Shown here one piece after another: positions 18,234 through 18,256 of a stretch of 64,000 nucleotides of DNA (position 1 is its first letter; every line of letters begins with the position of its first letter). Under the pieces are notes generated by a model. It was not told the origin of the DNA and ran no database searches. It saw only the letters and a program-made list of their open reading frames with translations. The DNA is taken from NCBI RefSeq assembly GCF_003334405.1, contig NZ_QOWM01000002.1; one strand, given 5' to 3'. Origin of the DNA: Escherichia coli. Its GTDB lineage: Bacteria; Pseudomonadota; Gammaproteobacteria; Enterobacterales; Enterobacteriaceae. The position numbers and the translations under genes were made by a program.

Positions 18234-18256
18234 GGTATAACAGGTATAAAGGTATA
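18234..18256. promoter_or_regulatory. NanR operator: three GGTATA repeats (GGTATAACAGGTATAAAGGTATA)
   Basis: Tandem hexamer repeats visible about 35 bp upstream of the nanA start. Confidence 0.8.

What the first reader, a model, noticed from the sequence alone, without database searches (positions are those of the whole stretch)
18234..18256. Triple GGTATA NanR operator at the nanA promoter
Three GGTATA hexamers with 3- and 2-bp spacers (GGTATAACAGGTATAAAGGTATA) sit just upstream of nanA, in the pattern described for the NanR operator. A CRP-like site (AGTGA-N6-TCGCA) lies about 40 bp further upstream.
Basis: partly seen in the sequence, partly recalled or inferred. Interest (0 to 1): 0.3.

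Follow-up and report, generated by a model that had tools for sequence, protein, structure and literature searches.

The report
Known NanR operator at nanA promoter
This is the well-studied DNA switch of Escherichia coli where the repressor NanR sits on three GGTATA repeats to keep the sialic-acid-eating genes off. It is real and correctly read, but it is textbook knowledge.

Summary
GGTATAACAGGTATAAAGGTATA lies at 18234-18256, once in the window and never in 100 shuffles. The window is E. coli, nearly identical to K-12. The motif sits in the 121-bp gap between nanR (17379-18170) and nanA (18292-19185), ahead of nanT, nanE, nanK and nanQ. This is the published (GGTATA)3 NanR operator. Three NanR dimers bind it cooperatively, and N-acetylneuraminate weakens binding about 28-fold (Horne 2021; Vimr 2013).

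New support found here:
- Repeats 1 and 2 are invariant in the nanR-nanA spacers of nine enterobacterial genera. Repeat 3 has decayed in four of them.
- A 27-nt core, TTGATCTGGTATAACAGGTATAAAGGT, is identical at the nanC and nanX promoters of K-12.
- Repeat 1 overlaps an extended -10 element, TGGTATAAC, so promoter occlusion is the likely mechanism. This step is inferred.

The CRP-like site (18180-18195) scores at background on sequence alone: 15 equal or better matches in the window against 27 expected. However, its half-sites are conserved, its spacer varies, and its distance to the -10 is fixed (48.5/49.5 bp, about -60.5/-61.5). This holds across genera and in the two paralogous promoters, which fits a class I CRP site.

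Verdict: already known, low interest.

The parts
18234..18256 (+). NanR operator: three direct GGTATA repeats (18234-18239, 18243-18248, 18251-18256) with 3-bp and 2-bp spacers
   Evidence: unique in the window, 0 of 100 shuffles. Published as the (GGTATA)3 NanR operator. Repeats 1 and 2 are invariant in ten nanR-nanA spacers from nine genera.
18227..18253 (+). 27-nt core TTGATCTGGTATAACAGGTATAAAGGT, identical in all three E. coli sialoregulon promoters (nanA, nanC, nanX/yjhB)
   Evidence: alignment of the window against the K-12 nanC and nanX upstream regions.
18233..18241 (+). Inferred extended -10 element TGGTATAAC (-10 hexamer TATAAC at 18236-18241), overlapping repeat 1. The inferred transcription start is near 18248-18249, inside or just after repeat 2.
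   Evidence: Read directly from the sequence. The element is invariant across genera and is TGGTATAAT (perfect TGnTATAAT) in Serratia. No full -35/-10 consensus promoter was found, as expected for an activator-dependent promoter. The start site was not measured here.
18180..18195 (+). CRP-like site AGTGA-AGCAGA-TCGCA (8 of 10 core positions), centre at 18187.5, which is 48.5 bp upstream of the inferred -10 hexamer (about -60.5/-61.5)
   Evidence: the score alone is at background. (half-sites conserved, spacer variable, distance fixed at 48.5/49.5 bp in all ten spacers). (TGTGA-N6-TTGCA and TGTGA-N6-TAACA at the same distance in nanC and nanX). (literature: CRP-activated).
18282..18294 (+). Shine-Dalgarno AGAGG (18282-18286) and the nanA start codon ATG (18292-18294)
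   Evidence: GAGG and ATG are conserved in most of the aligned genera.
17379..18170 (+). nanR, the GntR/FadR-type repressor that binds the operator (263 aa)
   Evidence: NF003011 NanR, 409 bits against a cut-off of 260. (100% identical to the NanR cluster of 3273 sequences). (full-length match to PDB 6ON4/6WFQ/6WG7 NanR).
18292..22854 (+). Regulated operon: nanA (18292-19185), nanT (19294-20784), nanE (20832-21521), nanK (21518-22393), nanQ/yhcH (22390-22854)

Best explanation
The 23-bp element is the NanR operator of the E. coli nanATEK-yhcH (nanQ) promoter. NanR is encoded immediately upstream. In the absence of sialic acid, its dimers load cooperatively onto the direct GGTATA repeats, up to three dimers. 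The repeats overlap the -10 element and the likely start site, so bound NanR keeps RNA polymerase from forming a productive complex (this step is inferred). N-acetylneuraminate binds NanR, weakens DNA binding and de-represses the operon (published). The AGTGA-N6-TCGCA element 38 bp upstream is most likely a class I cAMP-CRP activator site centred about -60.5/-61.5. It would make expression depend also on the absence of preferred carbon sources. The poor -35 region fits an activator-dependent promoter.
For: Sequence and uniqueness. Gene identities. The regulator is intact and identical to the crystallised protein. Published mechanism (three dimers, KD 20-39 nM, Hill coefficient about 2, two repeats needed, 28-fold weakening by Neu5Ac, cryo-EM and crystal structures): PMC8012715. 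Operator description and up to 1000-fold induction: PMC3658417. In vitro genomic SELEX found NanR upstream of nanATEK: PMC4797297. Phylogenetic footprint: the block CTGGTATAAYAGGTATAMAGG is conserved in ten nanR-nanA spacers from nine genera, while the surrounding spacer diverges. The 27-nt core is identical at nanC and nanX. Within E. coli the 121-bp spacer is at least 99% identical in 5383 of 5409 genomes, against 1773 of 5411 for the 2-kb stretch that includes coding sequence. CRP: half-sites conserved, central 6 bp variable, centre-to-(-10) distance 48.5 or 49.5 bp in all ten spacers. Hafnia has a different but better site (TCTGAGATTGATCACA) at the same distance. The same spacing holds in nanC and nanX. 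Literature statement of CRP activation.
Against: No binding, footprint or start-site data could be produced here, and the primary footprint papers (Kalivoda 2003 and 2013) are not held. The placement of -10 and +1 is therefore my inference. [quoted passage not shown] The CRP core match (8 of 10) is no better than chance in this window. The consensus promoter scan finds nothing in the spacer. A later SELEX paper kept only the nanC/fimB site as the NanR target in the presence of Neu5Ac, which suggests the nanA operator is released more readily.
Confidence: 0.93

Rival explanations
1. The NanR operator is real, but the AGTGA-N6-TCGCA element is a chance resemblance. Any CRP dependence of nan expression would be indirect or act through another site.
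For:: 15 sites in the window match the CRP core as well or better, fewer than the 27 expected by chance, so the score carries no information. No primary CRP footprint could be read.
Against: The half-sites are invariant in nine of the ten spacers while the central spacer varies. Hafnia carries a different CRP-like site at the same distance. Paralogous nanC and nanX promoters have TGTGA-N6 sites at the same 55-bp offset from repeat 1. The distance to the -10 matches class I geometry. The literature states CRP activation.
Confidence: 0.1
2. The repeats are primarily promoter elements, that is three overlapping -10-like TATAAC/TATAAA/TATATC hexamers in an AT-rich start region, and their conservation reflects RNA polymerase recognition rather than repressor binding.
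For: Repeat 1 lies within a good extended -10 (TGGTATAAC; TGGTATAAT in Serratia). Each repeat contains a TATA-rich hexamer.
Against: The conserved GG of each repeat is not needed for a -10 element. Published EMSA, ultracentrifugation and cryo-EM show NanR dimers on these repeats, with two repeats required. The same 27-nt core accompanies all three NanR-regulated promoters. NanR-like regulators in distant phyla also have triple GGTATA next to them. The two roles overlap rather than exclude each other.
Confidence: 0.03
3. The triple repeat is a chance or slippage-generated short tandem repeat with no regulatory role.
For: Short-period GGTATA-containing tandem arrays with no link to nan genes are common in unrelated genomes (more than 120 stretches, mostly in Bacteroidota and other MAGs).
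Against: The pattern is unique in the window with 0 of 100 shuffles. It is conserved across nine genera at a fixed distance from nanA. There is direct published binding evidence.
Confidence: 0.01

Closest known systems
E. coli K-12 NanR (GGTATA)3 operator of nanATEK-yhcH (Kalivoda et al. 2003, 2013; Horne et al. 2021)
   Same: It is the same locus, and the 2-kb and 121-bp stretches are 100% identical to MG1655. It has the same three repeats with 3-bp and 2-bp spacers, the same adjacent nanR, and the same downstream operon.
   Different: Nothing in the operator differs. The window comes from a K-12-like strain rather than MG1655 itself: there are 9 substitutions and one gap across 49 kb, and the IS5 in yhcE is absent.
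NanR operators of nanCMS and nanXY (yjhBC) in E. coli
   Same: They share the identical 27-nt core TTGATCTGGTATAACAGGTATAAAGGT and a CRP-like TGTGA-N6 site 54-55 bp upstream of repeat 1.
   Different: The nanC third repeat is degenerate (GGTGCA). The nanC and nanX CRP-like left half-sites are consensus TGTGA, whereas nanA has AGTGA. The right halves differ: TTGCA, TAACA and TCGCA.
FadR and other GntR-family palindromic operators
   Same: The repressor has the same winged helix-turn-helix fold, and many DNA-contacting residues are shared with FadR.
   Different: The NanR operator consists of direct repeats, not an inverted repeat. No inverted repeat was found in the spacer. Several dimers bind cooperatively through an N-terminal extension.
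Class I CRP-dependent promoters such as lac P1 (CRP centred at -61.5; established knowledge)
   Same: There is an upstream CRP-type site about 60.5-61.5 bp from the inferred start, a weak -35, and a repressor operator over the core promoter or start site.
   Different: The site is weaker than lac's (8 of 10 core positions). The start site and the CRP footprint were not verified here.

Membership tests
NanR (GGTATA)n operator of the E. coli sialoregulon | Two or more direct GGTATA repeats separated by 2-3 nt | tested here: met
   three exact repeats with spacers of 3 and 2 nt.
NanR (GGTATA)n operator of the E. coli sialoregulon | Located in the promoter region of a NanR-regulated sialic-acid operon, next to nanR | tested here: met
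   the element lies in the nanR-nanA spacer, 35 nt before the nanA ATG.
NanR (GGTATA)n operator of the E. coli sialoregulon | Sequence identity with the operator of the strain in which it was defined (K-12), and a shared core with the nanC and nanX operators | tested here: met
   (100% identity to MG1655). (identical 27-nt core).
NanR (GGTATA)n operator of the E. coli sialoregulon | Cognate NanR protein present and intact | tested here: met
   263 aa, 100% identical to the NanR cluster representative, with a full-length match to PDB 6ON4.
NanR (GGTATA)n operator of the E. coli sialoregulon | Physical binding by NanR and release by N-acetylneuraminate | not testable with these tools
   Published for this sequence. 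It cannot be repeated in silico.
Class I cAMP-CRP activator site | Match to TGTGA-N6-TCACA above background | tested here: inconclusive
   8 of 10 core positions, with 15 equal or better matches in the window against 27 expected by chance.
Class I cAMP-CRP activator site | Centre near -61.5 (or -71.5, -82.5 and so on) relative to the transcription start | tested here: inconclusive
   the centre is 48.5 or 49.5 bp upstream of the inferred -10 hexamer in all ten spacers, which gives about -60.5/-61.5. The start site is inferred, not measured.
Class I cAMP-CRP activator site | Evolutionary conservation of the half-sites with a free central spacer | tested here: met
Class I cAMP-CRP activator site | CRP-dependent transcription and a CRP footprint | not testable with these tools
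   Only secondary statements are available. The primary papers are not held.
Canonical GntR/FadR palindromic operator | Inverted-repeat symmetry | tested here: not met
   no inverted repeats in 18100-18320. The repeats are direct, as published for NanR.

The most novel reading that the evidence does not exclude
GGTATA-direct-repeat recognition may not be confined to enterobacterial sialic-acid regulons. A Sphingomonadales MAG (L065) encodes a regulator that passes the NanR model cut-off. A Synergistales genome (L024) encodes a NanR-like GntR regulator below the cut-off, divergent from a Zn-dehydrogenase and TRAP-transporter cluster. Each carries a triple GGTATA array in its own upstream region. 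This suggests an older NanR-like clade that uses the same operator grammar for other sugar-acid pathways. Separately, the three E. coli sialoregulon promoters look like copies of one roughly 80-bp cassette made of a CRP site and the operator.
Probability: 0.35. Interest if true: 0.3.

Novelty: already known. Interest (0 to 1): 0.07.

Why it matters
It matters little as a discovery. The operator, its repressor, the inducer and the structures of the complex are published, and the element is already used in sialic-acid biosensors. The comparative data add small refinements. Two repeats are the conserved core, and the third is dispensable in several genera. The CRP-like site, which is uninformative by score, is supported by conserved geometry.

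Tried and rejected
- **Primary papers.** I tried to read the primary footprint and start-site papers (PMC166481, PMC3807447, PMC362108, PMC526197). None is held, so the published +1 and CRP coordinates could not be cited.
- **Consensus promoter scan.** The sigma-70 and terminator scan of 18100-18320 found nothing. This is uninformative for an activator-dependent promoter.
- **Genome-wide pattern scan.** Most hits were unrelated period-8/9 tandem arrays in Bacteroidota and other MAGs. Only two Enterobacter loci and two distant NanR-like loci were relevant. It cannot be used to estimate the motif's distribution.
- **CRP scoring.** Scoring by core consensus mismatches gave a background-level result. 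No curated CRP weight matrix was available offline, so I did not build one from memory.
- **Sodalis NanR.** P0110 has no contig on record.
- **Repeat finder.** The generic repeat finder does not report the 6-nt repeats because of their length and unequal spacing.
- **Other regulators.** I considered a different regulator, for example NagC, binding the repeats. I rejected this because nothing in the sequence or the retrieved literature supports it.

Full report
**Observation.** The sequence at 18234-18256 reads GGTATAACAGGTATAAAGGTATA: three exact GGTATA hexamers with a 3-bp spacer and a 2-bp spacer. Single GGTATA hexamers are frequent, with 29 on both strands of the window. The tandem pattern GGTATA-N2-3-GGTATA-N2-3-GGTATA, however, occurs once in 64 kb and never in 100 dinucleotide-preserving shuffles. 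The CRP-like AGTGAAGCAGATCGCA lies at 18180-18195, 38 bp upstream of the first repeat.

**Context.** A 2-kb stretch around the site is 100% identical to many E. coli chromosomes, including K-12 MG1655, and is present in 5411 of 5426 complete E. coli genomes. It is annotated there as nanR, nanA and nanT. NCBIfam models place each gene above its curated cut-off:
- NanR (409 bits against 260)
- N-acetylneuraminate lyase
- the sialate:H+ symporter
- ManNAc-6-P epimerase
- ManNAc kinase
- N-acetylneuraminate anomerase

The window runs from tldD to beyond kdsD. Across 49 kb it differs from MG1655 only by 9 substitutions, one gap and the absence of the IS5 copy that interrupts yhcE in K-12. NanR here is 100% identical to the main NanR cluster and matches the crystallised protein over its full length (6ON4, 6WFQ, 6WG7).

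[quoted passage not shown] Horne et al. 2021 (PMC8012715) report the following:
- One repeat binds poorly. Two repeats give similar affinity but only two complexes.
- Lengthening the spacers weakens binding.
- Cooperativity needs the 32-residue N-terminal extension.
- Neu5Ac binds NanR and weakens DNA binding 28-fold.

Genomic SELEX also recovered NanR binding upstream of nanATEK (PMC4797297). The primary footprint and S1-mapping papers (Kalivoda 2003, 2013) are not in the held library. From my own memory, and not verifiable here, the 2003 abstract says that the roughly 30-bp NanR footprint covers the promoter region and contains the three repeats.

**Comparative evidence produced here.** I collected nanR-nanA spacers from Salmonella, Citrobacter amalonaticus, Klebsiella oxytoca, Edwardsiella, Cronobacter, Serratia and Hafnia and from two Enterobacter species. 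I aligned them with the window. The findings were:
- The block CTGGTATAA(C/T)AGGTATA(A/C)AGG is conserved in all ten sequences, while most of the spacer diverges.
- Repeats 1 and 2 are invariant.
- Repeat 3 is exact in E. coli, Enterobacter, Cronobacter, Serratia and Hafnia. It is degenerate in Salmonella (GGTAGG), C. amalonaticus (GGTATG), K. oxytoca (GGTACA) and Edwardsiella (GGCATG).

This fits the published finding that two repeats suffice for high-affinity binding. Within E. coli the 121-bp spacer is at least 99% identical in 5383 of 5409 genomes. Only 1773 of 5411 genomes reach that level for the 2-kb stretch that includes coding sequence. In K-12, the promoters of the other two NanR-controlled operons, nanC and nanX (yjhB), carry the identical 27-nt core TTGATCTGGTATAACAGGTATAAAGGT.

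**Mechanism.** Repeat 1 sits inside TGGTATAAC (18233-18241), a good extended -10 element (TGnTATAAT). It is invariant across genera and is a perfect TGGTATAAT in Serratia. The region 17 bp upstream is GGGGTG, which is not -35-like and is not conserved. The consensus promoter scan finds no complete sigma-70 promoter. This is what is expected of an activator-dependent promoter.

With this -10, transcription would start near 18248-18249. Repeat 1 would then cover about -14 to -9, repeat 2 about -5 to +1, and repeat 3 about +4 to +9. NanR dimers on the repeats would therefore occlude the -10 and the start site. This step is my inference. One secondary source describes the operator instead as lying downstream of the polymerase-binding site.

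**The CRP-like site.** By score alone it is unconvincing. It matches 8 of the 10 core positions, and 15 sites in the window match as well or better, against 27 expected by chance. Three other observations support it:
- In nine of the ten spacers the half-sites TTTAGTGA and GATC(G/T)CA are invariant, while the central bases vary (AGCAGA, AGTAGA, ACTCGA, AGCCGA, GATAGA). Hafnia carries a different and better site, TCTGAGATTGATCACA, at the same place.
- The distance from the site's centre to the start of the -10 hexamer is 48.5 or 49.5 bp in all ten spacers. This corresponds to -60.5/-61.5, the classical class I position.
- The paralogous nanC and nanX promoters carry TGTGACACGAATTGCA and TGTGACATCAGTAACA at the same 55-bp offset from repeat 1.

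[quoted passage not shown] I put the probability that this is a functional CRP site at about 0.85-0.9.

**Comparison and novelty.** This is not merely like the NanR operator. It is the NanR operator of the type locus, and all sequence-testable defining features are met. Binding itself is published but cannot be tested here. It differs from typical GntR/FadR operators in being made of direct rather than inverted repeats, which the literature already notes. Nothing about the finding is new.

**Side observations.** The motif scan also picked up two loci outside the Enterobacterales:
- A Sphingomonadales MAG (L065) encodes a regulator that passes the NanR model cut-off (288.8 bits against 260). 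It has GGTATAGTGGTATAACAGGTATA about 230 bp upstream.
- A Synergistales genome (L024) encodes a NanR-like regulator below the cut-off (215.9 bits). It has TTGGTATACTGGTATACTGGTATAAT 60 bp before its start codon, in the spacer shared with a divergent dehydrogenase and TRAP-transporter cluster.

These hint that the GGTATA-repeat grammar belongs to a wider NanR-like clade. This was not pursued further.

**Verdict.** The feature is already known, and interest is low.

Noticed in passing
L065:1040-1062 (minus strand) and L024:8520-8541 (minus strand): Triple GGTATA arrays lie just upstream of NanR-like GntR regulators outside the Enterobacterales. In the Sphingomonadales MAG the regulator scores 288.8 bits against the NanR cut-off of 260. 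In the Synergistales genome it scores 215.9 bits (below the cut-off) and is divergent from a Zn-dehydrogenase and TRAP-transporter cluster, with the third repeat reading GGTATAAT like a -10 element. No nanA was found in either locus.
   Followed up: partly
L122-L125 (Salmonella, Citrobacter amalonaticus, Klebsiella oxytoca, Edwardsiella), nanR-nanA spacers: The third GGTATA repeat is degenerate in these four genera (GGTAGG, GGTATG, GGTACA, GGCATG), while repeats 1 and 2 are invariant. Those operators probably hold only two NanR dimers.
   Followed up: partly
window 18171-18291 versus 17300-19300: Across complete E. coli genomes the nanR-nanA spacer is more conserved (at least 99% identity in 5383 of 5409) than the surrounding 2 kb, which is mostly coding (at least 99% in 1773 of 5411).
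   Followed up: no
window 15632-17017 (minus strand) and L122, L123, L124, L126: In E. coli a C4-dicarboxylate transporter gene (dcuD, annotated dcuC) lies between sspB and nanR. In Salmonella, Citrobacter, K. oxytoca and Cronobacter, sspB is followed directly by nanR with a gap of about 100 bp. The transporter gene is therefore an insertion, or a loss in the others, at this junction.
   Followed up: no
window 17350-17365: GATGATGTTAATCACA, a 2-mismatch CRP-like sequence, lies 14 bp before the nanR start codon. There are no GGTATA repeats in the dcuD-nanR spacer (17018-17378), so there is no sign of NanR autoregulation through this motif.
   Followed up: no
window 2367-2382 and 6372-6387: These are the two best CRP-core matches in the window, each with 1 mismatch. 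AGTGATTTAGATCACA lies in the aaeR-aaeX divergent spacer and CGTGACCCATATCACA in the yhcN-argR spacer.
   Followed up: no
window 25114-25117: The window lacks the 1195-bp IS5 that interrupts yhcE in K-12 MG1655, and otherwise differs from MG1655 by 9 substitutions and one gap over 49 kb. The source is a close K-12 relative, not MG1655 itself.
   Followed up: partly
whole window: The hexamer GGTATA, counted on both strands, occurs 29 times against 15.1 +/- 4.0 in dinucleotide shuffles (0 of 100 shuffles reach 29). Only three copies belong to the operator. The rest are probably a codon-usage effect (TAT-ACC or GGT-ATx), which was not tested.
   Followed up: no
window 39984-40091 (minus strand) and 61736-61857 (plus strand): Rfam matches above the gathering threshold: ArcZ sRNA next to arcB (120.8 bits) and the enterobacterial greA leader (127.5 bits). 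Both are expected for this region of E. coli.
   Followed up: no
L002:9135-9212, L011:431-481, L118:8741: Long period-8/9 GGTATA-containing tandem arrays occur in Pseudoalteromonas, Shewanella and Psychrobacter contigs (for example GGTATAACT repeated about 12 times), with no NanR or NanA homologue in the fetched flanks. They appear to be ordinary microsatellite-like repeats, unrelated to the operator.
   Followed up: partly
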